A stretch of 63,808 nucleotides of DNA, filler included, from Stramenopiles sp. TOSAG23-2 (Eukaryota), in NCBI GenBank assembly GCA_900128395.1. It is 2 parts of 2 records of this genome, joined end to end, with 100 filler letters (N's around TTAATTAATTAA, not from the genome) between each part and the next. Parts side by side here need not be neighbours in the genome. Positions count along the whole stretch, not along the records: positions 1 to 31,857 come from LT649365.1; 1 more part is not named here. One strand, written 5' to 3'. The position numbers and the translations under genes were made by a program. Below are positions 2,093 to 51,659 of the stretch, piece after piece (position 1 is the first letter of the stretch; every line of letters begins with the position of its first letter). The notes beneath the pieces were generated by a model, which was not told where the DNA came from, did no database searches, and saw only the letters and a program-made list of their open reading frames with translations.

Positions 2093-5000
2093 ACTCCCGT
2101 CCATAGTAACGATATAATCTTCTTCTTCTTTATTTTTAACCACCCCGCGTTTGCCAAATTCTTCTTCCTCAGGATCTAGCACAACAATACGATCGTCTTT
2201 TCCCGGTACAACAGTTGCTAACATGTTTTCATGCATATTTTCCTCTTGACCATTTGCGTGGCGTACTACATGTATGCGCGGTTGATCGACAAGACTTCTT
2301 ACCAGCTCTAATTGAACACTTTCATCCATTTTCAAGGTCAATAAAAGACCAGCAAACGTACTTGGATTAGGAGGAGTACCCCATGCATCCCCATCATCAA
2401 TATCATCAGTTTGACCTACACTTGGTGTACTATTGCCACCAATAAACGAGCCAGGAGTACCCATGTAACTATTATTATCGCGTGGGGTGTGACCAGCGTT
2501 GTCGCTTGGGGTATAACCACCTACTGTACTTGGTGGGCCAACATTCCCTTGAAAACTACTCATTCCTGGTTGACCGTAAGCAGTGCTGCCATTATTACTA
2601 TATTGCTGAGATTGGTTACTGGAACTTGAATTGTTGCCTCCCCAACCACTACTAGATGGTGCTTGATAATTCCCGAATTAGTGCTGCCATTATTACTATA
2701 TTGCTGAGATTGGTTACTGGAACTTGAATTGTTGCCTCCCCAACCACTACTAGATGGTGCTTGATAATTCCCGAATTGATTATATCCACCACCACTCGTC
2801 ATCATTCCTTGATCGTAATTATTTGTGACCATAGGAGTCGCACTGGGCGTTTGCATCTTCGGCGTATCCCAATCACCTTCATTTCCGCCAGTAAAACCAG
2901 GTGTTAATCCTCCCGTACCGCCTAAGTTTGGCGTCATGCCTCCCATTGCGAAACCTGGTGTCATTCCACCACCACCAAAATGAGGCGTTTGGCCACCAAA
3001 TTGAGAAGGCGTTTGCCCGCTCATGGTAGAACCCATAGGTGTATAATTATAATTGGCCATTACATCTTTATTTACAACTTCTCCATCTTTTTGATATACT
3101 TCCATATATTCGTTTTTTTGCACGGTAACCGTTTTATTTCTCGAATGCAGCTCAATGTCGCGATGAGTAGCAGTACCATCAACAATAATACCAATTTTTC
3201 CTTTCCAAAATCCTTTAATAATTTGTACAGATTTCCCAATCTTATATTCCTCACGTTCCCTTTGATTAATTTTGTTGATGTTCCTACGACCACTTTTACC
3301 ACCCAAAACTGGTGCTCTTCCATTCGATGCATTCGGAATCATACCTTTGGATAACGTCGTAAGGTCCTTATTTGATGCGTAACCAGCTAATTTTACATCT
3401 CTAGCAGTAACAACAAATATGCCAGCATTATCAATACGATCACGCGAATGCAAAAATAAGGAATTGTTTGTCATATGCTTCACAGTTCCACGTTCACCTT
3501 TATGTTTTCCAGTAATCACTGCAACAACATCGCCTTCAGTAACATACTGCCGATCAGATGTTACCGCCTGCGCTTTCTTAGAAACAAAATTCAAAGAACG
3601 AGAGATCTCCTCTGGTTTCACGGTAACAACAACACCACGCTGATCCAACATATCTAAACTTTCACGGGTAATCTTCACAACGCAGCCACGTTGTCCACCA
3701 ACACCTACCTGAATTAAATCATACATTTTATATCCATTTAATGTATTTAAATCAGTGGATACATCTGTACTTTCTTGTATATCAGTCACAAATACACGCA
3801 TTTCACGCGTTTGCGCATCATTAAGTATAGTGGCTTCCATTTTGTTACCAACTTGTTCTACATTTACTACAGTGCCAGTATCTCCACTATACCTTCCATT
3901 AAGAACTTTTACGTGCATACCAGTACTGAAATATTTTTCAATATGATCTAAACTTTGTTCAATCGTATCAACTCCGGGAATATTTATACTTGTTGGACGT
4001 AATTTAGCAGTTTTTTGATCAAGATCAATGCTAACAATTTTACAAATTACATTTTTCAAATCACTGGCAGTTATACGTACTGTATCACCCAATTCAAAAG
4101 GTATTATTTTCGAAGTGGATCCAAGCCGTGCATTTGCGGCCAATGCATCGGATGCTGAAAATCCGCTACTTCCTTCCCCTAAATTTTCAATGTCTTCCTC
4201 ATCTTCAGCATCTCTTTCACCACTTGCAATTCTTTCTTTTCTTGCTTCATTAGTTTGAGATTCAAATCGAGCACGCTCTTGTAGCGTAGGTTTCACATCG
4301 ACATCTACAGCAGTTTTGCCTACTCTTCGCTTGTATAAAAAGCCATCTTTGAAATATTCACGTTTAAAGCGAGTAAACTCATTGATGAATTTTTTCCCAC
4401 CGCTTGCATATTCATATTGTCTCATTTCATCCATTGGAATATTCCTATCATCAAATGGAATTTGTCCCACGCCAAATGTGCTTTCAATTTCCTTCATGTC
4501 GAAAAATTTAGCTGCTGGCCTTCCACCATGATTCCTATTACGTTGCCTTTGCGCAATGTATTCTTTCTCTCCTGTTAGCCAGATTTGTTCCAAGCTGACT
4601 TCGACATCTTGCTGATGATCATCTTTATAATAAATCCCTTTACACCAGCTAAGAGTTGGTCTAGAATGCATTTCCAAACTTTCCAATGCCCTTTCCACTC
4701 TAGCAGCCGCATCTTCATCTGCTTGCCTTACTTCATTTAAATAAGTTTCCAATTCCTTTCTTAAATAATCTTTCATGTATAAATGTTTCGGCTGTTCGCT
4801 CTGTATCAAATCAAGGCGTGGTATTAATCGCAATACAACTTGGCCTCGTGGATCTGAATCCGTCATCACCATGCCAATATCACCACGATATATCCCATTT
4901 TTCATACGTACCCATTGACCACGTTTTAATACATCTTTCTTTTTTGTAATACGGAAAATAGTGGTCATTTGTTCCACAGGAATCATCTGTATATCGCGCA

Positions 5001-5799
5001 TGAAAATCCCAGCAATCCCTTGAATAAATGATGTCACGTCCGTTTTATTATATGCCTCAACATAGATAAAACCACGTGTTTTCGATGCAGTGACGGAAAA
5101 GATAGGCACTCGTTTCTTTTGACGGGTATATGCATGTGATTTATTCAACAGTTGCAACGCATATTGTTGCTCTTTTCCTCTTAAACATTTAACGGCATAT
5201 AATTTTGGATCTTGCGGTGTTGGCAAAAATTGACCTCGCTGTAATTGCAAATTAGACTTCTTCAAGAGCTTTCTGGTCCTCTTCTCTTCTCTTCTTTGAT
5301 CCCTGTGACGTCGGGTAACGTCGTCAACCATATCCTGGGCTGAGAGATTTTTAACCGCATCTCGTTGCTTGGCCCGCTTTTTTAACCTTTCTTCCATATC
5401 CCTTCTTTGCTGCTTCAATTCCGCAGATTCATTTTCCTCATCCTTTTGCAGCTTTAGACGTTCTTTTTCTAATGCTTCCTCGTCTTCTTCATCATCTTCT
5501 GATGCTTCATCATCAAATAAAGAACTAACATTTTTACTTTTTTTACTACTACTACTACCACTACCAGAATCTTTTCGACGACGTTTCCTACTATTGCCAA
5601 CATATTCATCATCTTCGTCTTCATCGGAAGATGCAGAATCATCTGAGGATGCCGAATCATCGATAACTTTGCTTTTGTTCTCAGTGCTTTTTCCATCATC
5701 ATTACTATCTTCATCATCAGACGATGCAGAGTCGTCTACGTTTTCAATAGTTGTTTTCTTGACTTCCTCTTCAACATCTTTTTTTGCACTTTCAGACAT
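2039..5799 (-). CDS. SPT5: Transcription elongation factor SPT5 (ORFs 2560..5799 and 2039..2563 are one gene)
   Basis: Acidic N-terminus, NGN domain (DPKLYAVKC...GFIYVEA), several KOW motifs (GQWVRMKNGIYRGD, GDVVAVITGKHKG), Gly-Met-Thr-Pro CTR repeats and a terminal KOW. The frame break matches a 98-nt exact duplication (2582/2680); removing one copy restores the frame (3236-98=3138, divisible by 3). Confidence 0.95.
2582..2777. repeat. 98-nt exact tandem duplication that frameshifts SPT5
   Basis: agtgctgccattattac...cccgaatt occurs at 2582 and again at 2680. Confidence 0.95.
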
Positions 5800-6534
5800 A
5801 ATTATAATATTATTACTCTAAATTATATTATATAAAGTTATACGTATATCAATATATCTATCTATCTATATATATTCACGCCGAGAAGAAAAACAAAACA
5901 CCACACACACACAGTTATATAAACCAATTATAAAACTAAAATTAAAAAAGAGACGTAGTTGTTAAATGTGTTTATATATTTCAATTTTGTTATCTCTCTC
6001 TCTCTATATATCTTCTATCTTCCATGTTTTTAAATATACTATGACATAAACCTGTATTATTAGTAGTCCATTTTTAGCTGGTTATAGCTGGTTAGCATTT
6101 AATCTATTTAAGTCACTGATGCATCCATTCATTCTTTTTGATTCATTTTTATAATTTATCAATCTGAAAAATCGTAATCAGTCGTCTGGCAGTGTTGTCG
6201 CATGATGTTGTGTACGCCTGCCGGGCCTGCCCTGGGCCTGCTATTATACAGTAAGGCCTAACGATGCTGTGTCACCCTAATATTATATGGCTGGACCAAG
6301 TGTAGCATAATATAAACCTCGTACACCTTAAAGTATAAAATATCTTCTTAATTCTTAAATTGTCGTTGTCTCAATATGATGAAATACTACTTATAGTATA
6401 ATATTTTTGTTTTAGTTGTCGTCACTCTCCTCAGCTCACCCACTCTCTTTCTCTCTCTCTTTCTCTCTCTCATGCAACACATTTACTAAAATAATTTTTA
6501 ATTTTTTTACTTCTTGTTTTTGAAAATATTAAAA

Positions 6535-8169
6535 TTAGTCCAATTGAATGACAGGACCAGTGTACGGCTCTCTTTCGACCTTGTATCGCAATGGATCTTT
6601 TGAACGTTCACGATTAGCTTGTTCTTTGTAACTGTAACCATATGGTTCACGCTTAACAATACGTCCCCAACCAGATTCAGTTTTTAACTCATTGTCTTCC
6701 CAGACAATACGGCCAGCGGAAATAGTTTTATCAGCTATACCATACATAGTCATACCTTCAAAGATATTAAAGTCAACAGCATGATGATGTGTATCTTTTG
6801 AAATAGTACGAGTATTATCACCATCCCAGATAACGATATCAGCATCACTACCTTCAGCAATACGTCCTTTACGAGGATACATATTAAATAACTGTGCTGC
6901 TTTTGTACTGGTTACTTTTACAAAATCTTGTGGAGACATATCAATGCCTTTTACACCTTTATGCCATACAACTGTCATACGATCCTCGATACCATTGCAA
7001 CCATTAGGAATCATCCTGAAGTCGTCCTTTCCCATTGCTTTTTGGTTTGCACTGAAAGTGGCATTATCCGTCCCTACCAAATCTAAACTTCCTTCCTTCA
7101 AACGTCTTATTAAATCATGTTTTGTATCTGGATCTTCACGTAATGGTGGTGACATTACATGTCCAGCAGCATGACGCCAATCTTTATCATAATACTCACG
7201 CCCATCTACTGCCAATGCAGCTGCAATTGGCTCTCCCCATACTTGAATACCAGCTTTTTTTGCACGTTCAACTTCAAATGCAGCACTTTTTGACATCACG
7301 TGAACGATGTACAATGGCACATTTACTTGATCTGCCAATGCAATTGCACGATGTGTTGCTTCCGCTTCAGTTTCCTCTGGTCTACTCATTGGATGCCCTT
7401 CCGGTCCCATAATACCTAAATCAACCATTGCTTGTTGCCCATCATCCACCATATCACCATTTTCAGCATGTACTTGTGCCAATGCCCCAATTTCCTTACA
7501 ACGACGAAAAATTTTTAAAATTTCATCATCATACATACGCAATACACCATTATATGCTAAGAAAAATTTATAAGAATTTACACCTAATTCATTTGTAACT
7601 GTTGCCATTTCTTCCAAAACACTTTCACTGTACCAGGTAACAGCCATGTGAAATGCAATATCACAATTAATTTTCGGAGTTGCTTTTTTGACCCAATCTT
7701 GATGCGCTTCGATCAACGATTGGCCACGTCCTGGAACAACAAAATCAATTAAACATGTTGTCCCACCTGCTACAGCAGCCGTTGTTCCGTAATGATAATC
7801 ATCAATAGTGGTAGTTCCCATAAAAGGCATTTCTAAATGTGTATGTGTATCAATACCACCTGGTATTACATATCTTCCAGTAGCATCCACTTCCTTAGCA
7901 TTTTGTGGCAAATCATCACTGGAAATTTGCCCTACTTTGATAATTTTTCCATCTTGAGTAAGTACATCCGCTTTGAAAATAGCATCGTGGTTTACGACTG
8001 TACCATTTCTAATAATCAATGGTGGTGCATCTTCATACGTACGTTCTGAACTGAACGAAGCTATTAAGTTATTATTATTATTACCAATAATTTTATTTAA
8101 ATTATTCCCATTTTTATAATTATTACGTATTGATTTTTTCGTAATATTTTTTATTGCAGATAAAAACAT
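6535..8169 (-). CDS. DPYS: Dihydropyrimidinase (D-hydantoinase) with a presequence-like N-terminal extension
   Basis: PGGIDTHTH metal site, SYKFF carboxy-Lys region, HAENG, HVMS, GTDN and GRIAEGSDADIVIWD. The first ~41 aa are basic and contain no acidic residues. Confidence 0.95.
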   Translation of the reverse strand: MFLSAIKNITKKSIRNNYKNGNNLNKIIGNNNNNLIASFSSERTYEDAPPLIIRNGTVVNHDAIFKADVLTQDGKIIKVGQISSDDLPQNAKEVDATGRYVIPGGIDTHTHLEMPFMGTTTIDDYHYGTTAAVAGGTTCLIDFVVPGRGQSLIEAHQDWVKKATPKINCDIAFHMAVTWYSESVLEEMATVTNELGVNSYKFFLAYNGVLRMYDDEILKIFRRCKEIGALAQVHAENGDMVDDGQQAMVDLGIMGPEGHPMSRPEETEAEATHRAIALADQVNVPLYIVHVMSKSAAFEVERAKKAGIQVWGEPIAAALAVDGREYYDKDWRHAAGHVMSPPLREDPDTKHDLIRRLKEGSLDLVGTDNATFSANQKAMGKDDFRMIPNGCNGIEDRMTVVWHKGVKGIDMSPQDFVKVTSTKAAQLFNMYPRKGRIAEGSDADIVIWDGDNTRTISKDTHHHAVDFNIFEGMTMYGIADKTISAGRIVWEDNELKTESGWGRIVKREPYGYSYKEQANRERSKDPLRYKVEREPYTGPVIQLD

Positions 8170-9016
8170 CTTGTTCCTTCTCTCTCTTTCTGTATGTTTT
8201 AATTTTTTTCTTTCTCCCTACAATGTTTTTTTCTTCTTCTTGTCTTTTCTCTCTCTGTTATATAATGGATTTTATATATAATACATCTGTATCTTATATG
8301 ATAGTATAGATACATATTTTACTAGGCCGGAAGGCGGCACGAAGGGCACAAGGCTTGTTAACCGAGGACACAATACAATAATATCTTTCGCAACTTTTTT
8401 AACTCTCTGCTTTACTAAAAAGGAGGGGAAACGATATTTTGTTCAAAATCCAGCTTTGCTGCCTTTGTTAGGCCTAGATTTGTCGTAATAAAGCTCCTAC
8501 AAAAAAAATAAGTATGCTGGTAATATGTACACTACCAGGTACACGGTTCTTATTAAAACGAGGTCACAACGTCAGAACGTTGGCACAAAATACAGGCGGC
8601 ATATTATCCTCGTATAATTATAATGATGTATTATCAGGATATTCTTGTACTATGGCCATCTTATTTAACCACTTGCAGTTGTTGTTGTAATTGTACGCAC
8701 GTGCAAAATAAAAAAGAACAGTTAAAAAGGTGCAAAGAAAAAATACATACATTATCATAGGTATAGATAGATAGATAGATAGAGCAAACAGAAACAATAT
8801 AAAGTAGAAGAGAAGAATTGAGCCAATTAAATTGATTTAAATCCTCAAATTTATACATATATACGGATATTATCGTATTACATAATTTATATTGTTACAC
8901 TTTAATTACTTATATATATACACATATATACAATAATATTAAATTGTAGATTATTTTATTTTCTTAGTATAGTACACATAATAATATTAATAATACATAT
9001 ACGTAAAAAAAATAAT
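8170..9016. promoter_or_regulatory. Probable bidirectional promoter between DPYS and the DPYD-UPB1 fusion
   Basis: 847-bp head-to-head intergenic region with a GC-rich patch at about 8325-8365 in an AT-rich background. The function is inferred from gene orientation. Confidence 0.6.
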
Positions 9017-12000
9017 ATGATGTTATCCACATTTGCGAAGCGTACTGCCAAAAATTCTACATCATCAACCAATAATAGCTTCATAAAAAACAGATTGTAT
9101 TTTACAAAGACGAAACCAACATTATTTGCACATCATGCAGAGAGAGGTACATCGTTTGAAGCAGATGATATCGTAAAACGTTTAGAATTAAATCCAACGG
9201 TTGAAAAAATGAACAAAGTTAGAGCCGTTCCAACGACTAGTACTAGAAAAGCAAGAAAACATTGGAAACGTATTAATAATGAATTAAAGCCACCAATGCT
9301 GAAGGATTTCACCGACGCTAAACATACCACTTTAAGCGAGCAAGCTGCTATTAAAGAAGCAGCTCGTTGCCTACGTTGTGTTGATGCACCTTGTCAACAT
9401 AGTTGCCCCACATCCATCGATATTAAAGCTTTTATTAGTGCAATATCAAATAAAAATTATTATGGTGCTGCAAAACAAATTATGAGTGACAATCCGCTAG
9501 GTTTATCATGTGGTATGGTCTGCCCAACAAGTGATTTGTGTGTTGGAGGCTGTAATGCTGAAGCAACAGAGGGTGGTGCTATTAATATTGGTGGACTGCA
9601 ACATTTTGCCACAGAAGCATTTATGAAAATGAATGTGGAACAAATTCATGATCCAAATTTAACGTCGTTGCCTGCATCCAAGGATATGAAAATTGCAATG
9701 GTTGGTTGTGGACCTGCCTCTATTTCAGCAGCAACATATCTAGCACGTATGGGTTACAGCAATATAACAGTCTACGAGAAGGAAAAAGAATTTGTTGGAG
9801 GCTTAAGTTCAAGTGAAATTCCAGGATATCGTTTGCCATACAGTGGTGTACACTGGGAAGTTCAACTGTTGAAAGATCTAGGTGTTAAAGTTGAAATGGG
9901 AAAAGCTTTAGGCGAAGACTTCACAATACAAAGCTTGAAAGATGATGGAGCTGCATCTGTATTAGTTGCATGTGGCTTACCACAGCCAATGCGTGAAGAT
10001 GTTTTTGATGGATTAGAGCCAAAACACGGTTTTTGGACATCGAAAGATTTTTTACCTAAAGTTGCGGCAGGTTCGAAATCAGGAATGTGTGCATCGAAAT
10101 GCAAATTGCCAAAATTGAACGGCAATGTCATCGTATTGGGCGCTGGTGATACTGCATTTGATTGTGCAACAAGTGCCTTGCGTTGTGGCGCAAAACGTGT
10201 TTATGTAGCGTTTAGAAAAGGTATTCATGGGATGCGGGCAGTACCCGAAGAAGTTGAACTAGCAATGGAGGAAAAGTGCGACTTAATGCCATTTCTTCAA
10301 GTAAATAGTGTAGTTACGAACAAGGATAATGGCAAAATTAAGTTAGTAGAATTTTGCAGATCCGAGCAGCAAGATGATGGATCATGGCATGTAGACAAAG
10401 AGCAAACGTGTGCTATAAAAGCTGACCATGTCATATCTGCATTTGGCAGTGTATTGGAAGATGAAAAGATTCACGATGCATTGACAGGGTTAGAAATTAA
10501 TTCATGGGGATTGCCAGAAACAGATCCAACCACACAACAAAGTAGTGATCCATCCGTATTTTGTGCTGGTGATGTTGCAGGTGTTGCACAAACAACGGTT
10601 GAATCAGCAAATGATGGTAAAGTAGCTGCATTAGGTATGCATAAATATTTAGAAGGTTTAGCTGGAAATAGCGTACCAGAAGATTTTTCTATGCCAGGTT
10701 TTTTCTCCCCGATCGATGAAGTAGACTTGAGTGTCGAAGTCTGCGGGTTGAAGTTCCCAAATCCATTTGGATTGGCTAGTGCGCCACCAACAGGTACCTC
10801 CGCAATCATGCGTCGTGCATTTGAGAATGGTTGGGGTTTCCTTGTAACGAAAACATATGGGTTGGATAAAGACATTGTTACAAACGTTTCTCCTCGTATC
10901 GTGCGAGGAACAACTGGCGGGGATTGGAATTTCGGTCCAAATCAAGCCTCATTTTTGAACATCGAATTAATTTCAGAGAAAACAGAGGAATATTGGCTTC
11001 AATCGATTCGCGAATTAAAACGTGATTATCCAGATCAAATATTAATCGCTAGTGTTATGGCAGCTTACAACGAAGAGGATTGGTGCGAATTAATACGCAA
11101 TGCAGTTGAAGCAGGTGCTGATGCAATCGAAATGAATTTAAGTTGCCCACACGGTATGGGTGAAAAAGGTATGGGTCTTGCATGTGGACAAGATCCAGAA
11201 ATGGTCGAACAAATATGTAGATGGGCAAAAAAAGTTGCTCCAAATACTCCTGTATTTGCAAAATTAACACCAAACGTAACAGAAATTACATATATAGCTG
11301 AAGCAGCTCAACGTGGTGGCGCAGATGGTGTCACAGCTACTAATACAGTTTCTGGGTTGATGGGTTTGGAAGAAGATGGCAAAGCATGGCCAAATGTTGG
11401 TGAGGAAGGAAAGACTACATATGGTGGATTTAGTGGTAATGGTATTCGACCAATTGCATTGCGAGCGGTCAGTGCAATAGCAAAAGCATGTCCTGGATTT
11501 CCAATATTAGCAACTGGTGGGATTGATAGTGCACATAGCGCAATGCAATTTTTACAAGCTGGTGCACATGCAGTGCAAGTATGCAGCGCGGTACAAAATC
11601 AAGATTCTACTGTTATTAAAGACTATATTACTGGAATGCAAGCCATGTTATACATGGAAGCTCGTAACGATCCAAAGTATAAAGGCCAATCTCCAACATT
11701 GCAGCCAAGGCATCAAAAAGGGAAAGCAGTTCAAGGTGCAGAAGAAGTAGATGACTTTAAACCATTTTTCGGAAAATATTATGAGGAGAAAATATTTGCC
11801 GCTGCAGATAAACGTTCACAGCAAGAATATATTTTGGATGACCAAGAAATTGAAGAAATTAAAAGCATTAGGCCTGTACCACCATTAAAACAAAAAGTCC
11901 GTACGGTTAATGAATTAATTAGCGCAGGTGTTCATCGTATTGGTGCATGGCATGAACTAAGTCAAGCAGAACAGGTTATAGCGAAAATTGATCCTTCTAT

Positions 12001-13576
12001 GTGTGTTAATTGCGGTTCATGTTTCAGCTCATGCAATGATTCTGGTTATCAATCTATTACATTTGACAGCGATACACATTTACCATACATTGTAGAAGAG
12101 GATTGTACAGGCTGCACTTTATGTTTAAGTGTGTGCCCAATTAATGATTGTATTACAATGGTGCCAAGGGATGGTCCATACATTCCAGATCGCGCAGTAC
12201 CATTAGGTGAAGCATTCGATGATAAGAAATGGGGTATGTTTTCAAAACTAGTAACTACGGCAGCACGTCGTCAATTGAGAAATGTTGCAACTAAACATAA
12301 AAAATCCATTTTAAACGTTAGGAATAATAACCATAACAAAATAATAATAGCAAATTTTGGTGTTGAAGTAGAAGATGACACGTTTGGGAACAGAGGATGG
12401 ACAAAAGGTGAGTTTCACAGTGTTGAAAACACATTGAAGGAGAAATTAAGCGAGGAAGATCATGCAAATGTAACTCGTGTATTATATGGTTTAAACCAAG
12501 GGAAAACAGTTGAAGAACTACCAATACCACAAGCTGCGCAAGACTTGGCTGACAAAGGTGAATTTGATATTACTTTGCATAAATTTGGTGCTGCTGCGGA
12601 GTCACGAGACCCAAGAATCGTTAGGTTTGGCGTGACACAAAATTCCATTATTACGGAAACACATTTATCAATTGACGAGCAATACGAATCCCTTGAGGAG
12701 AGACACAGGGAATTTGTCGAAGCAGCTGCTGCAGCTGGTACCAATGTTTTATGCTTTCAAGAAGCTTGGACTATGCCTTTTGCGTTTTGCACTCGGGAAA
12801 AACTGCCTTGGGTTAATTTTGCCGAATCTGCTGAAACTGGTCGTAGTACTAAATTTTTACAACGTTTGGCATTGAAGCATAACATGGTCATCGTTAGCCC
12901 TATTTTGGAACGTGATGAAGCACATGGTGGCACTATATGGAATACGGCTGTTGTTATCGGCAACAATGGTAATATCATTGGGAAACATCGTAAAAATCAT
13001 ATACCTAGAGTCGGGGATTTCAATGAAAGTACATATTACATGGAAGGTAATAATGGCCATCCAGTGTTTGAAACTCAATTCGGAAAAATTGCTATCAATA
13101 TCTGCTATGGTAGACATCACCCATTGAACTGGATGGGATTTGGTTTGAATGGGGCTGAAATTGTTTTTAACCCAAGTGCTACAGTTGGTGCATTATCAGA
13201 ACCAATGTGGAGTATTGAAGCACGATGTGCTGCGATTGCTAATAATTACTTCGTAGCAGGTAATAATCGAGTAGGAACAGAAAGTTTTCCAAACGAATTT
13301 ACAAGTGGTAATAAGCAACCAGCAAAGAAAGACTTTGGGCATTTCTACGGCTCATCATATATTGCTGGTCCAGATTCAAGTAGATGTCAAGGATTATCAC
13401 GCACAAGAGATGGTATTGTAATTGCAGAAGCTGATTTGAACTTATGCCAACAAGTAAAAGATTCGTGGGTCTTCCAAATGACTGCAAGATACGACGATTA
13501 TGCAAAATTATTAACAGATTATTGTAAACCAGATTTTACCCCACAAGTAGTAAAAGATCCATCATTATCGGACTAG
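9017..13576 (+). CDS. DPYD-UPB1: Fusion: dihydropyrimidine dehydrogenase (9017-12235) + internal presequence-like linker (12236-~12360) + beta-ureidopropionase (~12360-13576)
   Basis: DPD motifs: [46 protein letters not shown], the [21 protein letters not shown] catalytic loop and two C-terminal 4Fe-4S motifs ([23 protein letters not shown]). UPB1 nitrilase-fold Glu-Lys-Cys triad motifs: [30 protein letters not shown]. There is no stop codon between the two. Confidence 0.93.
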
Positions 13577-13802
13577 ATATATATATATACACACATGTAA
13601 TGTATAATATGTATACGTACATTTTAATAATAATATAATATATGTGATAACACATACAATCATTAAACCAGATTTTACCCCACAAGTAGTAAAAGATCCA
13701 TCATTATCGGACTAGATATATATATATACACACATGTAATGTATAATATGTATACGTACATTTTAATAATAATATAATATATGTGATAACACATACAATC
13801 AT
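13525..13802. repeat. 139-nt tandem duplication covering the fusion stop codon and 3' flank
   Basis: taaaccagattttacccc...ggactag...cacatacaatcat occurs at 13525 and 13664. Confidence 0.9.
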
Positions 13803-13818
13803 ATTCTTTTTGAAGGCC

Positions 13819-14110
13819 TGAAGGAAAAAAGTGAAATTTATTTTTTTGTTTTCAAGATTTTATTACTCGTACAAAATAACATAGATATGCATTTTATTAT
13901 AATATCATGTATGCATATTTAAAATAAAAATCGATTGGTTAAAATCTAAAGTTATAATAATTTTTGAAGGAAAAAAGTGAAATTTATTTTTTTGTTTTCA
14001 AGATTTTATTACTCGTACAAAATAACATAGATATGCATTTTATTATAATATCATGTATGCATATTTAAAATAAAAATCGATTGGTTAAAATCTAAAGTTA
14101 TAATAATTTT
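13819..14110. repeat. About 145-nt tandem duplication
   Basis: tgaaggaaaaaagtgaaattt...taaagttataataatttt occurs twice. Confidence 0.9.
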
Positions 14111-14494
14111 GATATATATATTTAAAATATATAAATGTGATATATTTAAACATCAAAAATTAATAAGATATAGTAGTATAATTAATATGCATATAACTTA
14201 TATTTTTTAATTTACTCACATATATATATATATGCATATATTTTGTACGAACGTATTTTAAATTTGAATTAAAGTGTTATTCATTAATATACGTGTATTT
14301 TAATTTTTTATTTTCTACTCGTGATATTAATATCTATCTTGGTATATACATTTAATTAAATAAATAAAATATAATACGATTCGTATTTTTTTTTTAACAT
14401 ATTTTTTTAGTATTTTTTTGTGAAATATTTTTGCACACCATACACATACACGCACACACATTTTGTTGATCTCTCTCACATACATATAGATCTC

Positions 14495-15652
14495 CTATGC
14501 TTTACTTCTTTGATCATACTTATTAATTATATCTTCAACTTCATTTTTAAAATTATCATAAAATCTTTTACCTTCCATTGGTCTTGAATGAAACGTAAAT
14601 GGAAGGCAAGATTCTGCACCAGCACATAAAATTTTGGACAAATCATCAATAGATAATTGGACATCTTGAAGCAAATGTAACACTTCAATTGTCGGACTTG
14701 GCTCCCTTTCACTATCCCCAGATAGTAGAAAATTATCACTATTTAAACTACATTTAATACCATTTTCATGCATAATTTTGATTGGATGCTCATTATATGT
14801 TTTTACTTTCCATCCTACATTACTTGTTAAACAGCACTCAACAAAAATATTATTATCAATAACTTTTTTCATTAAATCATCTCTTTTATATAATTGTATT
14901 CCATGACCAATTCTTTTAATACAATCTGAATTTACTGCAATATCTAAATTATCAATAGAACTTTTAAATCTTTCTTCAATCGGCCACTCTCCAGCATGCA
15001 CTGTCACCGGGACATTTAATCTTTTCGCTTCTTTAATTCCATCCATCATCAATGACAACGGGTAACTGCCTTCATCTCCAGCAATATCGTATCCTACAAC
15101 ACCAGGGGTACGATCTAAAAATTCACTAGCTAATTGGGCCATTTCGACTGAATGTTCCGTTGGATAGCTGCGCAAAGCACAAACTATAACGCCTCCCTCA
15201 ATATTTACCTTTTCTTGAGCTTTAGCATACCCATCAATGACACTTTTTATGGCATCTTTCTCTGTCAGACCTTCCAACGTATGTAAGCTTGGGCAAAATC
15301 GTATTTCACACACCTTCACGTTCTCCCTGGAACACCTATATAATATATCTGCAGTTGCATCAATTAATTCTTCTTTCGTTTGGAGAAATCTATTGCAAAA
15401 ATCAAATATGCTCCAATTGCCTTTTGCACTTTGCTTATTACCACCAGCAATTTGCTTAATTTTTCGTTGTTGCAAATGTGGCCTGAGTTCCTCAGGTTTA
15501 GTGACATCCAATTTTATATTGCGTGCTTCAGCACGTTTGAAAATAAATTCACTTGATAATGAACCATCTAAATGTAGATGCAGTTCTGTTTTTGGAAGCA
15601 ATCTGGCTAATTCTTTGATAGTTGTTGTTGTATTCTTTGTTGTCCCTGCCAT
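14495..15652 (-). CDS. ADA: Adenosine deaminase family enzyme
   Basis: LPKTELHLHLDG, EIRFCP, DIAGDE, TVHAGE, RIGHG, ECCLTSN and LNSDN motifs. Confidence 0.9.
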   Translation of the reverse strand: MAGTTKNTTTTIKELARLLPKTELHLHLDGSLSSEFIFKRAEARNIKLDVTKPEELRPHLQQRKIKQIAGGNKQSAKGNWSIFDFCNRFLQTKEELIDATADILYRCSRENVKVCEIRFCPSLHTLEGLTEKDAIKSVIDGYAKAQEKVNIEGGVIVCALRSYPTEHSVEMAQLASEFLDRTPGVVGYDIAGDEGSYPLSLMMDGIKEAKRLNVPVTVHAGEWPIEERFKSSIDNLDIAVNSDCIKRIGHGIQLYKRDDLMKKVIDNNIFVECCLTSNVGWKVKTYNEHPIKIMHENGIKCSLNSDNFLLSGDSEREPSPTIEVLHLLQDVQLSIDDLSKILCAGAESCLPFTFHSRPMEGKRFYDNFKNEVEDIINKYDQRSKA

Positions 15653-16045: not shown

Positions 16046-16540
16046 CAATTCACTCTGGCAATCAGGATGTCTAGAAAAAAATATATTCCTATTATTCGAA
16101 TTATAGACACTAGACACTACCACTTCCTACGCTCAGAATTCCTGATTATATTGTATGTGCGTATCATTAGATCATTATAGCTTAGAACAATCATCCGATG
16201 TTTTTGCTTGCAGATAGAGAGTAGCTATTCTAATTCTGGATATTATAAATTATAAGTGCAACTATTATATAATATCTTTGTTACTATTTATAATGCTATA
16301 GAAATGATATTTGCATGCATTTTTCTATTTCTACTATATGTAAATGTAAATTTTAAATATACTGTATATTCTATATGAGATATACATATATATCCACATA
16401 TATAGATATTATATAATGTATATGTAAATATATACGAAATAAATAATAAATTGATCATTACAAATTTTTGTTGATATTTGTTATTTTGTTTGTATTTGTT
16501 GTTGTGAATTTTAAGCACTTTTTTTTTGTCATCCAATAAA

Positions 16541-18045
16541 ATGATATTTTTAGCAACTGCTTTACAAGAAAATTGGAATAATTTTCCTTGGCATGGAGTT
16601 AATTTTGAAGTTTATAAAGATATGCCAACTCTTGTATATGCCGAGGTTGCCCATACTTTAATCTGTTTCTTATGTTTGTTGCACGCCTTCAGTCATTTCA
16701 GCCGAGAACAGCAAAAAAGACATATATTATTATGGATTTCTGCTATGACTGTAGGCCCATTTCTTTATTTACTTTCTATCTCCGTGTCTGAGTTAAATAA
16801 TTGTTGGTATAGCCAAGCTACGTTTATGATTACACCACGTCTACCACTGGTCACCATACTTGTGTATTGCGAAGCGCTTTACATAACTGTTGGAATAACT
16901 TGGTTCAGCGGAATAGATAGACTTGCGAGACCGTTTATAGTTGGTCTTATTTCCGCATTATTCCAATCCTGTCATGATCAGGTCGGAACTAAAATGTTAT
17001 GGTGGTCGTGGCATGATTCAGATAATAATACAAACCCAAGAATTATGGATGTACCAGTTACAGCAACATTTGGTTGGTGTATTTATGCAAATTGTTTCTG
17101 TCTCCTTATGCATTTGCCAGGTATGGTCGTGGCATGATTCAGATAATAATACAAACCCAAGAATTATGGATGTACCAGTTACAGCAACATTTGGTTGGTG
17201 TATTTATGCAAATTGTTTCTGTCTCCTTATGCATTTGCCAGGTATGGCGATTGGATATTATTATGGTCAAGAACCTAGGGACATATTTATGATTAACAAG
17301 CATTACTATGTTTTAACATATTTACTATTGTGTATTTGTATCATCCCTTTGTCAATTACAGTAATGGCAATTATACAATGTAGTCTTGGTTTCACTTTTC
17401 CACCAAATATAGAGCCACCAAGTATATGGACACTTGTCGTAACAATAATATTTACTATTGTGTATTTGTATCATCCCTTTGTCAATTACAGTAATGGCAA
17501 TTATACAATGTAGTCTTGGTTTCACTTTTCCACCAAATATAGAGCCACCAAGTATATGGACACTTGTCGTAACAATATTATCGCATATTGTAATAGCAGT
17601 ATTTTGTGGTATGTATGAGAAAACGTCTAGTTTAAGAAAAAAAACTTTAACTGGTAACAATCCAAAATTATTAGTAATAAGCATATGCCTTTATTATATT
17701 TTTAATGCATTTGTTGTTATATTTGGTAAACCTGAGGAGCATATTTCCCTTGGTTTGCATCAACAATATGGACATTGCGATACATTAGAAACGGATTTTA
17801 GCGGATTTTTAACAAGGAAAAAGTATGTATGTAAAGAGGAACGTATGAATCCAGATAGTTATGAATTCATTGAGAACGAAATGCCAAATATTGGTGATCA
17901 ATGGTATAAAATTAAAGGGATTGCAAAAAATGATGAATGGCTCCTTGGTATAACGATTACCTTGTTCACGTCAAGTAGCTTCATAGGTTTGTTAGTACTG
18001 TCTGCATTTCATGAAAGAAATTTACTTTTTGAGCATGAAAATTAA
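16541..18045 (+). CDS. Uncharacterised multi-pass membrane protein; the three track ORFs are one gene broken by two duplications
   Basis: Hydrophobic helices and motifs WYSQATFMITPRLP, KMLWWSWHD, MDVP and SLGLHQQYGHC. Exact duplications of 121 nt (17003/17124) and 130 nt (17321/17451) each shift the frame by +1, matching the ORF frames. ATG at 16541. Confidence 0.8.
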
Positions 18046-18962: not shown

Positions 18963-21900
18963 TTAAACATTCTCAAATAAATATACAGGCGCTTTTTTTG
19001 TACTAGTACTACTAAATTCCATATCATACGTATCGTCATCCATATTTTCATCGTCATTTTTCTTGGTAAAACTTGCATTTTCAGGAGGATGCCAATGAGT
19101 CTCCCCTACCCCAGGACTAATCCATGGAACCGACTCAGAATTTCCTTGGGGATCGCGCTGGATATTGGTAATTTTATTCGCCCTGCGCGCTGGACTTAAA
19201 CTGCGATTACGACTTGAAACAGTTGAACGTCCATATGTATTTTCTGGACTTAAAGAAGTATTATGCGCGTGAATTGAAGGCGTTCCGAATGGAGATGATA
19301 ATCTTTTTGTATCTTTTATCGTCCCTCTTGCTGAAATATTTCTTTCGAAGTTTGGTATATTAATCTCCACGCTGCCAGTTCTATGCAATCGTATGACACC
19401 ACCGCTACTACTCCTAATTGCAGATACAGTCTTTACACCTTTCTTTTTTTTTGATTTCATTCCTTTCGATTTTTTACTTCTACCACCTCTCCTTGTCATA
19501 GTAGGACTTTTCGTTCTTCCTCTTGCGGAGCGTCGAATTGCTTGTGCCCTTTCTTTGATATCGGAAAGTAACATTTCTGTTTTTTGATGGTCTCGCTGGG
19601 CCTTGTTTACTAAAGCAGTTATTCTTTTTACGGCTATATCTGATTTTTTTTGCTTTTTCAACAATCGATCAGCCAGTTGCTCATGCCTTGATAATATTAA
19701 GCCTTCTCTCCATATTCTAAATGCGCGGTATTTTTTTCGTTGTACTAAATATCTATGCATGACCCGGAAAAGAAAAATGGTTGCCTCTTTCCTTCTTTTT
19801 GAATCAGAAGTTTTCATTTCCTCTATTTGTTTACTCTGCACCATAACCATCCGCTGTTGCAAAGTCTTTATTTCTCGTGTCATCGCTTCCGACCATACGG
19901 CTTCCTCCTCATGTTCAGACTTTAAAGCAACGACTGTACTTTCCATTTTTTCCAAATAACCTTTATTTTCTTGCTCTTTTTGCTCCCATTGCTCTTTGTT
20001 TTTACGTAAAATATTTCTAGACCATCTCCAACCGTATACAGCCTTTAATTTCTGTGCCCGTAATTCCACTAATTTATTTCCTGTTCGTTGAACATGTGCT
20101 TTCAGTATCTCTTTATAATTTTCCTCAACCGTTATGCGTGCCCATTTATGGAAATACGATCGACGAGCTGATTTTAAATCTCGAACAAAAAGCCTTTCCA
20201 AAGTTTTAATGGCAGTTTGATGAGAAGACGCTGTTTGCCACATTTCTTTCCATTTATGATAACCATTGTATAATTTTATTTTCATCAGCTTCAATGTTAT
20301 ATGTGAAAATCTTATCTTAATTTTTTCTTCTTCAAGTTCATCATGCACTTTTTCCTCCATCTCCAATTGTTTATATCTCCGACAAATACGCTTAAATTTG
20401 TACCAATAAAAGTGCAATTTTTCCTTTGCAATATGACCAATTACACGCTTTATTAAACTTCCTCTGTAATTTAGACTGTTTATCTCTTTCACTAGTCCTT
20501 TCCACTTTCGCATCGCAGCAGCGATGGCCTTTTTACCAAGCTTCATTGCAATTCGCCGTAAGAAAATTTCTTCATCTTGTGCTCTAATTCTTAAAAATTT
20601 CCAATGTTCAAAATATGACTTTTCGATTTTTTTATTAAGAAGTTTAAAAACTCGATCAAATTGCCTTGCAGCTATAATCTTGGCTTTTTGACTATGAATT
20701 TTTTGCAACGCGGCTGCTTCAGCAAACCTTGAATCAATTTTCATTGTAAAGTTTTTCTCTAAAATTAGATGGTGAATCAAGTGTGTATGAGTTGTCCAAG
20801 CTCTAAAAGCTTGAGAAACTTTATTTCTTTTCCAAACCATTGAAAGGTGGTGCATTTTGATAGCTAACTCTCTACCTGCTTGCGCCCACCTGTAAGTCGG
20901 ATGAGTTAGTGAAACAGTGACCCATCTGACAAACGCTTTTGCTACTAGCATCTTCGATTTTCGACGGAGTGGCAATAACATTTTAGATATAACTAACGCA
21001 TGAAATTTACGTTTTTCACACATAATATGCCATTTTTTCACAGCCTGAAACAACTGCTTCTTCCTCCATCCTTCTAAGATCGAAAAAATACTTTTAATTG
21101 AGTACAATTGCCCTTCCCGATTTTTGATCACAGTTGCATTGTAATCTACCCATTTTTTCCAGCCTCGTGCAAGCCGACTTTGATCATAACGCTGAAAACA
21201 CGTTTTAATTAGATTAAATGACCGTTTTAAACCAAATTGATTCTTGAATTCATTTTGTTTGTCGAAATGAACGAATCGCCTAAATCGCATAAAAGCAGCA
21301 AATTTTCTACGTCGTTTTAGGCTAAGAATCACCTTGTCTAAAACCCTTGTACCGACTACGTAATTACCACTTTTCTTTTTCAAGTGGTTTGTAAATAATT
21401 TCCATCTGTTCATTCCTTTCATCAAACGGGATCGTATGTTGACATTTATACATCTTATTACAGTTTGTCCAATCTGTCGTTTTTTTGTTTGTCGAAAGCG
21501 ATTTGTGTAGTCACTTTCAAGTGTACTTCTTTCTTTTAACATTTTTTCTTCCATCATTTTATGTTCGTCAGCTAATGTTTCGACTTTTTTAGAATGTGCC
21601 ACTTCTAATCTTTTACGTAATTCTTCACTTTGTATAGCTTTGGTAGCAAACCACCATCGTAAGTATCCTCTTAACATCATTTTCTTTCGATAAGAACGAA
21701 TTATTGCTGTTAGCAGTAAATGTGCTTTTAGTAGATTCGCCTTTGCCATAGCTGCTTCAAATTGTTGTTGCAAAGTTCCATTTTCTATGTTGAACTGTTC
21801 TTGTGCTTTCTTTTTTTCCATCTCAACTAATGATTTTTCTGACTTCAGCATTTTCTTTTCCTCTTCCATCTTTTGCTTTTCCTCCTCAGCCCTTTTTCGC

Positions 21901-27437: not shown

Positions 27438-28259
27438 CGTTATCAATTTGTAATGTATCAAGCAAGAATTGCCATATATTTCTATATGGATAATGATATA
27501 TACGTATTTAAATATATATAAGTTGTTAATTATTTATTGCAAGTGCTATTATTGGATTTCTTCTTCTTCTTCATTCTTCTTGTAAAGTTTATTCGTATTG
27601 TTATTAATGATATATGCCTGTTAGGAGATAATTTATTAATTATACTTTACGATAAAAAATAATATCACACACACACAGTTAAAGATTCTGCACGCCAATA
27701 TCGATATTGCCAATATTAATATTATCGTAAATAATAATAAAGCTGTAGACTAATAATACGTGGTACATTACAATATGCAGTAATATCGAAAAAGATAAAA
27801 GTAACAAATAAAAAAAGTCTGTAGACGACTAGTATTCTGGTATGCGATGGTATTTTATATAAAACGACTAAATACGAGGAGCCATGGTGCTATTGTGCTG
27901 GTAGCCGGATCAACGAATTATTCCATAAATGATACAAAATATTATCTTATTAATATTTATTTGGATACATTTCGGAACATATTTTGGAATAAAAAAAAAA
28001 ATAGTTGTTTCCACCAGCCAGCGAACCCCAGAACCCTAATTGAATTTGTAAATATATAATAATATAATATAGATTAACACAGATTTACGAAGTAGGAATC
28101 TATAGTTATACATAGTATATTTTATACAACAAAATTTGTATAAAGAATTATTTCAAATCATCAAATAGATACTCAGTTTTTAGATTTGATAAATTCGAGT
28201 AGTATATATTTTATATCTAAACAAATTAAATCGTTAATTAAATTTACATCATCGAAAAA

Positions 28260-51329: not shown

Positions 51330-51659
51330 ATGGGGGGCGGCAATTGGAACAATTGGAGTAGCATAAAAATTTGGCCACATTTGTACAAAGTTGACCATAT
51401 TAAGCCATTAATGGATGGTGGGGATAATATATATCCGAATAATTACCAGCTACTGTGTCCAAACTGTCATTCAGTAAAAACAAAGTTGGAGAGGTCCAGA
51501 GATGGGCCTAGGGTAAACCAAATGTTAGCTCTCAAAGAAAGGCAAAGTTCATTGTGTAAAAGGAAAAGAGATTTAAGCAGAGCAATTTTTAAATTAGAAA
51601 AAAAGGCAAAAACGGCACAGCATATATATTTATATATGTATTATAAAGCATATAGTTGA
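51330..51659 (+). CDS. HNH endonuclease-like ORF, possibly a fragment or degenerate
   Basis: YKVDHIKPLMDGGDNIYPNNYQLLCPNCHSVKT is a typical HNH motif. The upstream CxxC is missing. Confidence 0.75.
   Translation: MGGGNWNNWSSIKIWPHLYKVDHIKPLMDGGDNIYPNNYQLLCPNCHSVKTKLERSRDGPRVNQMLALKERQSSLCKRKRDLSRAIFKLEKKAKTAQHIYLYMYYKAYS

What the first reader, a model, noticed from the sequence alone, without database searches (positions are those of the whole stretch)
8040..12360. All three pathway enzymes carry presequence-like leaders: possible relocation of the pathway to the mitochondrion
Seen: the DPYS leader MFLSAIKNITKKSIRNNYK...NNNNNLIASFSSE, the DPD leader [17 protein letters not shown]...[19 protein letters not shown] and the internal UPB1 leader are all about 40 aa, basic, acid-free and precede the conserved cores. 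The DPYS and UPB1 leaders end similarly (N-run + LIASF|SSE versus N-run + [10 protein letters not shown]), hinting at a shared processing motif. Known: the pathway is cytosolic in animals, and in Arabidopsis only PYD1 is plastid-targeted. The downstream beta-alanine transaminase and malonate-semialdehyde dehydrogenase are mitochondrial. Inference: a fully mitochondrial uracil-to-acetyl-CoA route.
Basis: partly seen in the sequence, partly recalled or inferred. Interest (0 to 1): 0.75.

Follow-up and report, generated by a model that had tools for sequence, protein, structure and literature searches.

The report
Mitochondrial-type leaders on pyrimidine-breakdown enzymes
All three enzymes that break down uracil in this marine protist carry N-terminal address tags of the kind that send proteins into mitochondria, so the pathway has probably moved there, while the apparent fusion of two of the genes is an assembly error.

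Summary
The three leaders are real. DPYS (6535-8169, minus strand), DPD (from 9017) and UPB1 (from 12236) each start with 37-41 residues that are basic and acid-free. The first D/E falls at residue 42, 42 and 44. These residues lie upstream of everything that matches solved cytosolic enzymes.

The UPB1 leader is not truly internal. The 1519-aa DPD-UPB1 ORF exists only because the window lacks about 444-477 bases: DPD's last two codons, its stop codon and an intergenic stretch. Those bases are present in the likely source run's own contig and in two metagenome contigs. UPB1 is therefore a separate gene with its own N-terminal leader.

In FastTree trees of all three enzymes, the window's proteins fall in clades where 22 of 25, 10 of 11 and 7 of 7 members carry long leaders. 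Outside these clades most members have short N-termini. Named leader-bearing relatives include plastid-free choanoflagellates and an amoebozoan.

Leaders diverge much faster than the mature parts (10-76% against 68-98% identity). They often end in R-x-F|S, the cleavage pattern I recall for the mitochondrial processing peptidase.

A mitochondrial location is the best reading, at about 0.65. No predictor, in-genome control or experiment was available, and the window's own leaders lack the arginine. I found no published description, and the scan had not noted this before.

The parts
8053..8169 (-). DPYS leader, residues 1-39 (MFLSAIKN...LIASF), proposed cleavage F39|S40
   Evidence: K5 R1, no D/E, first acid at residue 42. 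PDB matches start at residue 46-53. Leader identity to sister taxa is 31-49% against 97-98% for the mature part.
6535..8052 (-). DPYS mature part (dihydropyrimidinase)
   Evidence: Pfam Amidohydro_1 E 1.9e-24. Best PDB match is 2ftw, E 7e-182, query 50-537.
8170..9016 (.). Divergent intergenic region between DPYS and DPD
   Evidence: The nearest upstream in-frame stop lies 17 codons (DPYS) and 38 codons (DPD) before the ATG, with no earlier ATG/GTG/TTG in frame.
9017..9127 (+). DPD leader, residues 1-37 (MMLSTFAKR...KPTLF), proposed cleavage F37|A38
   Evidence: K5 R2, no D/E, first acid at residue 42. The PDB match 1gt8 starts at query 49 = chain 9. Relatives end in RSL|AHHA and RLF|AQHA.
9128..12235 (+). 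DPD mature part, cut short in this assembly after codon 1073 (last two codons KQ and the stop are missing)
   Evidence: Pfam Fer4_20, Pyr_redox_2, DHO_dh and Fer4_21. The same-species proteins P0036 and P0256 end in ...KKWGKQ. L001 2724-5951.
12234..12235 (.). Assembly junction: 444-477 bases (DPD's end, stop codon, intergenic region) are absent from the window
   Evidence: L001 5942-6418 is unmatched. X1 record 1 holds 444 extra letters here (table 8). L002 aligns to the window only from 12234 on. X4 record 28 stops fitting at 12234.
12236..12358 (+). UPB1 leader, residues 1-41 (MFSKLVTT...IIIANF), proposed cleavage F41|G42; N-terminal in the real gene
   Evidence: K5 R4, no D/E, first acid at residue 44. 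PDB matches start at query 58 = chain 4. The stand-alone 446-aa protein P0121 is 100% identical.
12359..13576 (+). UPB1 mature part (beta-ureidopropionase)
   Evidence: Pfam CN_hydrolase E 3.3e-55. PDB 8pt4 E 4.4e-154.
13525..13802 (.). 139-base tandem duplication (UPB1 3' end plus 3' flank), present only in the window's assembly
   Evidence: L001 7710-7848 aligns twice, and L002 likewise. X1 record 1 has 31 letters where the window has 170.
13819..14110 (.). 146-base tandem duplication, single copy in L001
   Evidence: L001 7865-8010 aligns to both 13819-13964 and 13965-14110.

Best explanation
The locus holds three separate genes of the reductive pyrimidine breakdown pathway. DPYS and DPD are transcribed divergently, and UPB1 lies downstream of DPD. 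Each gene encodes its enzyme behind a 37-41-residue N-terminal mitochondrial matrix-targeting presequence.

Shown:
- The leaders exist, are translated from the only usable start codons, and are basic and acid-free.
- They lie outside the fold of the solved cytosolic enzymes.
- They evolve far faster than the mature proteins, with a sharp boundary.
- They are a feature of a whole clade of marine-protist orthologues for all three enzymes.

Inferred:
- The precursors are imported through TOM/TIM23.
- They are cut by the mitochondrial processing peptidase, perhaps with one-residue trimming, at x-F|(S/A/G).
- Uracil/thymine would then be converted to beta-alanine/beta-aminoisobutyrate in the matrix, next to the transaminase and semialdehyde dehydrogenase that are mitochondrial in animals.
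- DPD's four Fe-S clusters would then be made by the mitochondrial ISC machinery rather than the cytosolic CIA machinery.

The 1519-aa DPD-UPB1 fusion ORF is an artefact of the deposited assembly and not a biological fusion.
For: Identity of the enzymes: Pfam and PDB.

Extra N-terminal residues: relative to solved chains there are about 40 (DPD, query 49 = chain 9), about 41-44 (DPYS) and about 54 (UPB1).

Composition: the first acidic residue is at 42/42/44, against 22 or less in 13 of the 14 other window ORFs. There is no hydrophobic h-region and no PTS2, and the C-termini are not SKL-like.

Start codons: the next in-frame Met is at residue 114, 65 and 180, inside the conserved cores, so a downstream start would truncate the enzymes.

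Clade pattern (FastTree trees on leader-stripped sequences):
- UPB1 clade of 25 tips (support 86): 22 with an extension of 25 aa or more, 17 of them net-basic; the 3 short ones begin downstream of the anchor.
- DPYS clade of 11 tips (support 76): 10 long, 9 basic.
- DPD clade of 7 tips (support 100): 7 long and basic.
- Outside the clades: 63 of 81, 73 of 77 and 65 of 66 are short.

Divergence: leader identity is 10-76% against mature identity of 68-98% in 15 of 15 pairs.

Cleavage pattern: R-x-[FYLMI]-[SAGT] occurs in 20 of 43 distinct basic leaders. Shuffled leaders gave a mean of 11.1, a maximum of 19, and 0 of 1000 reached 20. That this is the R-3 pattern of MPP is recalled, not tested.

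Plastid-free carriers: Acanthoeca, Helgoeca and Stephanoeca UPB1, and Vermistella UPB1 and DPYS.

Fusion is an artefact. In addition, 0 of the 120 listed long proteins combine DPD domains with CN_hydrolase, and the stand-alone proteins P0121 and P0256 exist.
Against: None of the window's three leaders has R or K at -2/-3 of the proposed cut. The endings are IASF|S, PTLF|A and IANF|G.

The amphipathic-helix measure is not distinctive. Maximum hydrophobic moment is 0.68/0.57/0.68, and 4 of the 14 other window ORFs reach 0.57 or more.

The leaders are N/K-rich low-complexity sequence of the kind an AT-rich genome produces anyway.

Five of 25 UPB1-clade members and 1 of 11 DPYS-clade members have long leaders that are not net-basic by my criterion.

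Related sequences are not independent, so the shuffle test overstates significance. The trees are FastTree only and midpoint-rooted.

No dedicated predictor, no bona fide mitochondrial protein of this genome (none found in the window) and no experiment were available.

A matrix pathway needs uracil/thymine import and matrix NADPH, and neither was examined.
Confidence: 0.65

Rival explanations
1. The leaders are non-targeting N-terminal extensions. They would be low-complexity N/K-rich sequence tolerated in an AT-rich genome, or a regulatory or oligomerisation tail, and the pathway would stay cytosolic.
For: N-runs dominate the DPYS leader (12 N in 41 residues). The window's leaders have no R at -2/-3. 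The hydrophobic moment is not distinctive. No localisation data exist.
Against: GC-richer relatives have leaders without N-runs that are still basic and acid-poor, and many of them end in R-x-F|S. The same kind of extension appears on all three enzymes of one pathway and in all three clades. Random extensions would not avoid D/E for 41 residues three times over (p about 0.004 each).
Confidence: 0.17
2. The leaders direct the enzymes to another compartment: a plastid (transit peptide), the ER/secretory route or the peroxisome.
For: Arabidopsis PYD1 is plastidic and PYD2 secretory (PMC2713857). Transit peptides resemble presequences. Some leader-bearing relatives are chlorarachniophytes, which have plastids.
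Against: The first 30 residues have no hydrophobic signal-peptide core. The maximum Kyte-Doolittle 10-residue mean is 1.04 and 0.16 for DPYS and DPD. UPB1's 1.91 sits at residues 36-45, at the proposed cleavage site. There is no PTS2 match and no SKL-like C-terminus. Equivalent leaders occur in plastid-free choanoflagellates and an amoebozoan. From recalled general knowledge, complex plastids require a signal peptide first.
Confidence: 0.08
3. The DPD-UPB1 fusion is real in this strain. One precursor would be imported, and the internal presequence-like linker would be cut inside the mitochondrion, as in the yeast Arg5,6 composite precursor (recalled).
For: The window's ORF is open and in frame across 12234/12235, and the join lies one base before the UPB1 ATG. 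Contigs can drop rare variants (caveat stated).
Against: The contig of run X1 has 0 other letters against the window over about 7 kb, so it is the same strain, yet it carries 444 extra letters exactly at the join. L001 and L002 carry the stop codon and a 469-base intergenic stretch. X4 record 28 leaves the window at 12234. Across the 4 runs laid, no listed piece bridges the join in the window's form (one search lists only part of the pieces). Two nearby tandem duplications are likewise private to the assembly. Zero of the 120 listed long homologues are DPD+CN_hydrolase.
Confidence: 0.05

Closest known systems
Animal cytosolic reductive pyrimidine catabolism (DPYD, DPYS, UPB1; solved structures 1gt8, 2vr2, 6ftq/8pt4)
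   Same: The same three enzymes with the same domain layouts. E-values are 0 (DPD), 6.9e-172 (DPYS against 2vr2) and 2.5e-153 (UPB1 against 6ftq). The proposed mature N-termini lie 11-17 residues before my alignment anchors, a little further upstream than the 2-16 residues of the leaderless orthologues.
   Different: The solved and animal proteins start within 3-28 residues of the first aligned position. The window's proteins carry about 40-54 extra basic, acid-free residues.
Arabidopsis PYD1/PYD2/PYD3 (PMC2713857)
   Same: This is a precedent that enzymes of the pathway can carry targeting sequences and leave the cytosol.
   Different: In Arabidopsis the three enzymes sit in three different compartments: plastid, secretory system and cytosol (GFP data; abstract and passages read). 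Here all three carry the same kind of leader, which suggests one shared compartment.
MPP-cleaved matrix presequences with R-2/R-3 motifs and Icp55-type trimming (recalled, not from a call)
   Same: N-terminal position, 20-60 residues, net positive, acid-free, hydroxylated, poorly conserved. Many relatives end in R-x-(F/Y/L)|(S/A) (20 of 43).
   Different: The window's own leaders keep only F|(S/A/G) without the arginine, and they use K and N heavily. Cleavage has not been demonstrated.
DPYS-UPB1 fusion proteins of ciliates and stramenopiles (P0004, P0005, P0009, P0025 and others)
   Same: Enzymes of the same pathway. Of the 120 proteins listed, 26 combine Amidohydro_1 with CN_hydrolase. Many of them also begin with basic leaders ending in KFST, VFST or GFSS just before the core.
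   Different: Those are genuine fusions of steps 2 and 3. The window's apparent fusion of steps 1 and 3 is not genuine.
Composite mitochondrial precursors cut at internal MPP sites (yeast Arg5,6; recalled)
   Same: This is what the window's 1519-aa ORF would resemble if it were real.
   Different: The single-ORF condition fails in the source run's contig and in two metagenome contigs.

Membership tests
Dihydropyrimidinase (DPYS) | Amidohydrolase fold with full-length similarity to solved dihydropyrimidinases | tested here: met
   Pfam Amidohydro_1 E 1.9e-24. PDB 2ftw E 7e-182, query 50-537 = chain 9-494.
Dihydropyrimidine dehydrogenase (NADP+), eukaryotic single-chain type | N-terminal Fe-S domain, FAD/NADPH domains, DHO_dh-like FMN domain and C-terminal 2x[4Fe-4S] domain in one chain | tested here: met
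   Fer4_20 at 98-206, Pyr_redox_2 at 224-531, DHO_dh at 571-878, Fer4_21 at 989-1048. PDB 1gt8 E 0, query 49-1064 = chain 9-1020.
Beta-ureidopropionase (UPB1, nitrilase superfamily) | CN_hydrolase domain with full-length similarity to solved beta-ureidopropionases | tested here: met
   CN_hydrolase E 3.3e-55. PDB 8pt4 E 4.4e-154, query 58-441 = chain 4-384.
Mitochondrial matrix-targeting presequence | N-terminal extension outside the mature fold, translated from the only usable start codon | tested here: met
   (fold starts at residue 46-58). (next Met at 114/65/180; upstream in-frame stops). For UPB1 this holds only after the assembly is corrected.
Mitochondrial matrix-targeting presequence | Net positive charge and absence of acidic residues | tested here: met
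   K+R of 6, 7 and 9 and D+E of 0 in the first 41 residues. First acid at 42/42/44, against 22 or less in 13 of 14 control ORFs.
Mitochondrial matrix-targeting presequence | Amphipathic helix | tested here: inconclusive
   Maximum 11-residue hydrophobic moment is 0.68/0.57/0.68. Four of the 14 other window ORFs reach 0.57 or more.
Mitochondrial matrix-targeting presequence | MPP cleavage motif with arginine at -2 or -3 (motif definition recalled) | tested here: not met
   The window's leaders end in IASF|S, PTLF|A and IANF|G with no R/K at -2/-3. The motif is met in relatives: 20 of 43 distinct basic leaders, against a shuffle mean of 11.1.
Mitochondrial matrix-targeting presequence | Poor sequence conservation compared with the mature protein | tested here: met
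   Leader identity 10-76% against mature identity 68-98% in 15 of 15 pairs.
Mitochondrial matrix-targeting presequence | Positive call by a trained predictor, or demonstrated import and cleavage | not testable with these tools
   No TargetP, MitoFates or DeepLoc is available. No genome is held, so there are no in-genome positive controls. The window holds no evident mitochondrial protein.
Composite precursor with an internal MPP site (Arg5,6 type) | Two enzymes encoded in one uninterrupted ORF in the organism's DNA | tested here: not met
   A stop codon and intergenic stretch are present in L001 and L002, and 444 extra letters in the contig of run X1.
Signal peptide, bipartite plastid leader, or PTS1/PTS2 | Hydrophobic h-region near the N-terminus; PTS2 nonapeptide; C-terminal SKL-like tripeptide | tested here: not met
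   maximum KD means 1.04, 0.16 and 1.91 (the last at residues 36-45); no PTS2 match; C-termini are IQLD, WGKQ (from L001) and SLSD.

The most novel reading that the evidence does not exclude
Reductive pyrimidine catabolism is a mitochondrial-matrix pathway in a broad set of marine protists. The set would include the window's lineage, acanthoecid choanoflagellates, an amoebozoan and chlorarachniophytes, and, through the leader-bearing DPYS-UPB1 fusions, ciliates and labyrinthulids. DPD, the textbook client of cytosolic Fe-S assembly, would then be matured by the mitochondrial ISC system. The cytosolic animal/plant arrangement would be only one of several states.
Probability: 0.45. Interest if true: 0.6.

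Novelty: new variant of a known kind. Interest (0 to 1): 0.5.

Why it matters
The reductive pyrimidine pathway is treated as cytosolic in animals and as split between plastid, secretory system and cytosol in plants. A version in which all three enzymes share one mitochondrial address would put uracil and thymine breakdown next to the mitochondrial steps that use beta-alanine and beta-aminoisobutyrate. It would imply a mitochondrial nucleobase importer. It would also make DPD a matrix Fe-S flavoprotein.

The pattern is not private to one uncultured cell. It marks whole clades of all three enzymes, including relatives of animals (choanoflagellates), so it can be tested in culturable organisms.

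The finding also shows that the striking 1519-aa 'fusion enzyme' in this assembly should not be propagated into databases.

Tried and rejected
No in-genome mitochondrial controls and no search for the downstream transaminase or dehydrogenase were therefore possible.

Intron reading of the join: the GTATGT at 12235 looks like a 5' splice site. No downstream AG gives the ...GKQ* ending seen in the database proteins, and the stretch missing relative to L001 begins CA/GC, so it is not a GT-AG intron. Rejected.

Positive controls in the window: Pfam scans of 31 further window ORFs found no evident mitochondrial protein to serve as a control.

RNA evidence:
- Contigs of RNA run X15 cover the DPYS leader and 60 bases upstream (record 7, 7382-8229) and parts of DPD. 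The one reaching the join ends at 12225 in adapter sequence.
- UPB1 had no cover in X15 or X4. The tool warns that such holes prove nothing.
- Transcript structure at the join is therefore not settled by RNA.

Crude identity thresholds to define 'near' and 'far' relatives, and the first strict leader criterion on the trees (13, 4 and 3 changes against shuffled minima of 14, 8 and 4), were too noisy. Truncated entries and leaders with one early acidic residue were counted as leaderless. I replaced this with clade counts.

Literature: eight searches found no paper describing mitochondrial targeting of these enzymes. The library lacks most subscription journals, so this is not proof of absence.

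Earlier scan notes contained nothing on this locus or this idea.


Full report
WHAT IS IN THE WINDOW

The minus strand at 6535-8169 encodes a 544-aa dihydropyrimidinase (DPYS). The plus strand at 9017-13576 is one open frame of 1519 aa. Pfam places the full dihydropyrimidine dehydrogenase (DPD) layout in residues 98-1048 of that frame: Fer4_20, Pyr_redox_2, DHO_dh and Fer4_21. It places a CN_hydrolase domain (beta-ureidopropionase, UPB1) in residues 1228-1481.

- DPYS residues 1-39, nt 8169-8053.
- DPD residues 1-37, nt 9017-9127.
- A third leader starting with a methionine at nt 12236, residue 1074 of the long frame.

THE FUSION IS NOT REAL

A search for long relatives listed 120 proteins. 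None joined DPD domains to CN_hydrolase, whereas 26 joined DPYS to CN_hydrolase. The near-identical database DPDs (P0036, P0256) are 1075 aa and end in ...KKWGKQ. A stand-alone 446-aa UPB1 (P0121) is 100% identical to the window from MFSKLVTT onward.

The metagenome contig L001 is 98.9-99.6% identical to the window. It has DPD at 2724-5951 ending in a TAA stop, then 469 intergenic bases (26% GC), then the UPB1 ATG at 6421. BLAST shows that the window lacks L001 5942-6418. The join is at window 12234/12235, one base before the UPB1 ATG. A second contig, L002, also carries the L001-type upstream sequence and fits the window only from 12234 on.

The strongest evidence comes from run X1, which the tool flags as the possible source of this DNA. 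Its contig (record 1, 12,387 letters) matches the window with 0 other letters. However, it has 444 extra letters exactly between the pieces ending and starting at 12234. It has only 31 letters where the window has 170 at 13570-13741 (table 8). An independent seawater run, X4, has a contig (record 28, 957 letters) that fits 11420-12234 and then runs on for 142 letters unlike the window. Across the four runs laid, no listed piece bridges the join in the window's form (only part of the pieces is listed).

The window also carries two tandem duplications, of 139 and 146 bases, that L001, L002 (the first duplication) and the X1 contig (the first duplication) lack.

I conclude, at about 0.9, that the deposited assembly dropped DPD's last two codons, the stop codon and the intergenic region. 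UPB1 is a separate gene, and its leader is N-terminal. I considered an intron, because GTATGT sits at the join. I rejected it because the missing stretch has no GT-AG ends and no acceptor yields ...GKQ*.

THE LEADERS AS OBJECTS

Each leader has 6-9 K+R and no D/E in its first 41 residues. The first acidic residue is at 42, 42 and 44. D+E make up 12.5% of the window's ORFs, so the chance of 41 acid-free residues is about 0.004 per protein. Of the 14 other ATG-ORFs, 13 have an acidic residue by position 22. The exception is a hydrophobic, membrane-type N-terminus.

Matches to solved structures begin as follows:
- DPD: query residue 49 = chain residue 9 of 1gt8.
- UPB1: query residue 58 = chain residue 4 of 8pt4.
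- DPYS: query residues 46-53.

The leaders therefore lie outside the known folds.

The next in-frame methionines are at residues 114, 65 and 180, inside the conserved cores. In-frame stops lie 17, 38 and 13 codons upstream of the three ATGs. A downstream start would thus destroy the enzymes.

A contig from RNA run X15 runs uninterrupted from the DPYS core through the leader to 60 bases upstream of the ATG. The tool cautions that such contigs do not prove transcription.

There is no signal-peptide-like hydrophobic core, no PTS2 match and no SKL-like C-terminus (the true DPD C-terminus comes).

The helical hydrophobic moment (0.68, 0.57, 0.68) is in the upper range but not distinctive. Four of the 14 controls reach 0.57.

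COMPARATIVE EVIDENCE

I aligned the N-terminal parts of the best hits of each enzyme: 120 for UPB1, 120 for DPYS and 85 for DPD. I then measured the extension before a conserved anchor.

I built FastTree trees from the leader-stripped sequences of complete entries (106, 88 and 73 rows). Entries that did not start with M, aligned poorly or fell outside a length band were dropped beforehand. In these trees the window's proteins fall in the following clades:

| Enzyme | Clade tips | Support | Extension of 25 aa or more | Net-basic |
|---|---|---|---|---|
| UPB1 | 25 | 86 | 22 | 17 |
| DPYS | 11 | 76 | 10 | 9 |
| DPD | 7 | 100 | 7 | 7 |

The three short UPB1 entries begin downstream of the anchor, so they are probably truncated. 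The single short DPYS entry (P0292) has a longer database variant, P0405, with the leader MRRAFQSSSRWWLRRLGLRTM|ATERNW.

Outside the clades, 63 of 81, 73 of 77 and 65 of 66 entries are short. Only 3, 3 and 1 are long and basic.

Named carriers of the long form include:
- The choanoflagellates Acanthoeca, Helgoeca and Stephanoeca (UPB1).
- The amoebozoan Vermistella (UPB1 and DPYS).
- The chlorarachniophytes Norrisiella and Gymnochlora (DPYS).

The first two groups have no plastid (general knowledge). This argues against a plastid signal.

In 15 of 15 pairwise comparisons the leader is far less conserved than the mature part: 10-76% against 68-98% identity. For example, DPYS against P0271 gives 31% against 97%. 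The boundary falls at the proposed cut:
- DPYS: ...LIASF|SSERTYEDAPP, ...IISTF|STERTFEDAPP, ...RQAAF|STERTYEDAPP.
- UPB1: ...[11 protein letters not shown], ...LAANF|TVEVED.
- DPD...PTLF|AHHA...PSLF|AHHA...RSL|AHHA...RLF|AQHA.

Across 43 distinct basic leaders, 20 contain R-x-[FYLMI]-[SAGT] beyond residue 10. Shuffled leaders gave a mean of 11.1 and never reached 20 in 1000 shuffles. The sequences are related, so this is supportive and not a probability. I recall this pattern as the R-3 (or R-2 plus Icp55) site of the mitochondrial processing peptidase. No call tested that.

The window's own three leaders keep F|(S/A/G) but have no basic residue at -2/-3. This is the main point against full membership.

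The DPYS-UPB1 fusion proteins of ciliates (Tetrahymena P0005, Ichthyophthirius P0009), a labyrinthulid (P0025) and many unnamed marine entries also begin with basic leaders. These end in KFST, VFST or GFSS directly before the DPYS core.

MECHANISM

Best reading, at about 0.65: each enzyme is made as a precursor, imported into the mitochondrial matrix and trimmed near F39|S40, F37|A38 and F41|G42. The mature N-termini would then lie 11-17 residues before my anchors, a little further upstream than the 2-16 residues of the leaderless orthologues.

Shown: the existence, position, composition, evolutionary behaviour and clade distribution of the leaders. Inferred: import, cleavage, and the consequences. 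Those consequences are a matrix conversion of uracil/thymine to beta-amino acids, the need for a nucleobase carrier, and Fe-S loading of DPD by the mitochondrial machinery. DPD is used as a cytosolic Fe-S marker in human cells (PMC3315811; search listing only).

WHAT IS KNOWN

In Arabidopsis, GFP fusions place PYD1 in the plastid, PYD2 in the secretory system and PYD3 in the cytosol (PMC2713857, abstract and passages). PMC9930899 repeats this (passages).

Eight full-text searches found no paper describing mitochondrial targeting of these enzymes. The library omits most subscription journals. Supplementary proteome tables, for example those of ciliate mitochondria, were not seen.

Earlier notes of this scan do not mention the locus or the idea.

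VERDICT

The leaders are real. The 'internal' position and the N-run motif are not.

A mitochondrial address is the best reading but remains a prediction.

Novelty: a new variant of a known kind. A known pathway and a known type of signal appear in an undescribed combination that seems clade-wide.

Interest: 0.5.

Noticed in passing
window 6535-15652: The three enzymes of one catabolic pathway are adjacent: DPYS and DPD divergent, UPB1 downstream. An adenosine deaminase gene (14495-15652, minus strand, no leader, first acid at residue 14) follows. This is a metabolic gene cluster, which is unusual for a eukaryote. UPB1 P0122 and DPYS P0284 of an 80-86% relative both list a longest contig of 42,086 bases, which hints that the cluster is conserved there.
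   Followed up: partly
window 13525-13802 and 13819-14110: Two tandem duplications (139 and 146 bases) are private to this assembly. Together with the 444-477-base deletion at 12234/12235, they suggest the assembly is locally unreliable, so other 'fusions' in this genome deserve the same check.
   Followed up: yes
window 13879-14118: Word depth is 12-fold or more above the flanks in run X1 (about 8964 against 719) and is also very high in X2 and X4. This is probably a high-copy repeat in the genome.
   Followed up: no
proteins P0003-P0034: DPYS-UPB1 fusion proteins (26 of 120 listed) occur in ciliates, a labyrinthulid, a brown alga and many unnamed marine entries. Many carry presequence-like N-termini.
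   Followed up: partly
window 51330-51659 (+): A 109-aa ORF with an HNH endonuclease domain (E 3.7e-08) sits in a eukaryotic gene-dense stretch. It may be a mobile-element remnant.
   Followed up: no
window 18963-27461 (-): An uninterrupted ORF of about 2830 aa has no Pfam match at E 0.001 or better.
   Followed up: no
window 16526-18045 (+): DUF7802 matches are split over two ORFs, with profile positions 48-213 in one and 266-372 in the other. This suggests an intron or a frame break in one gene.
   Followed up: no
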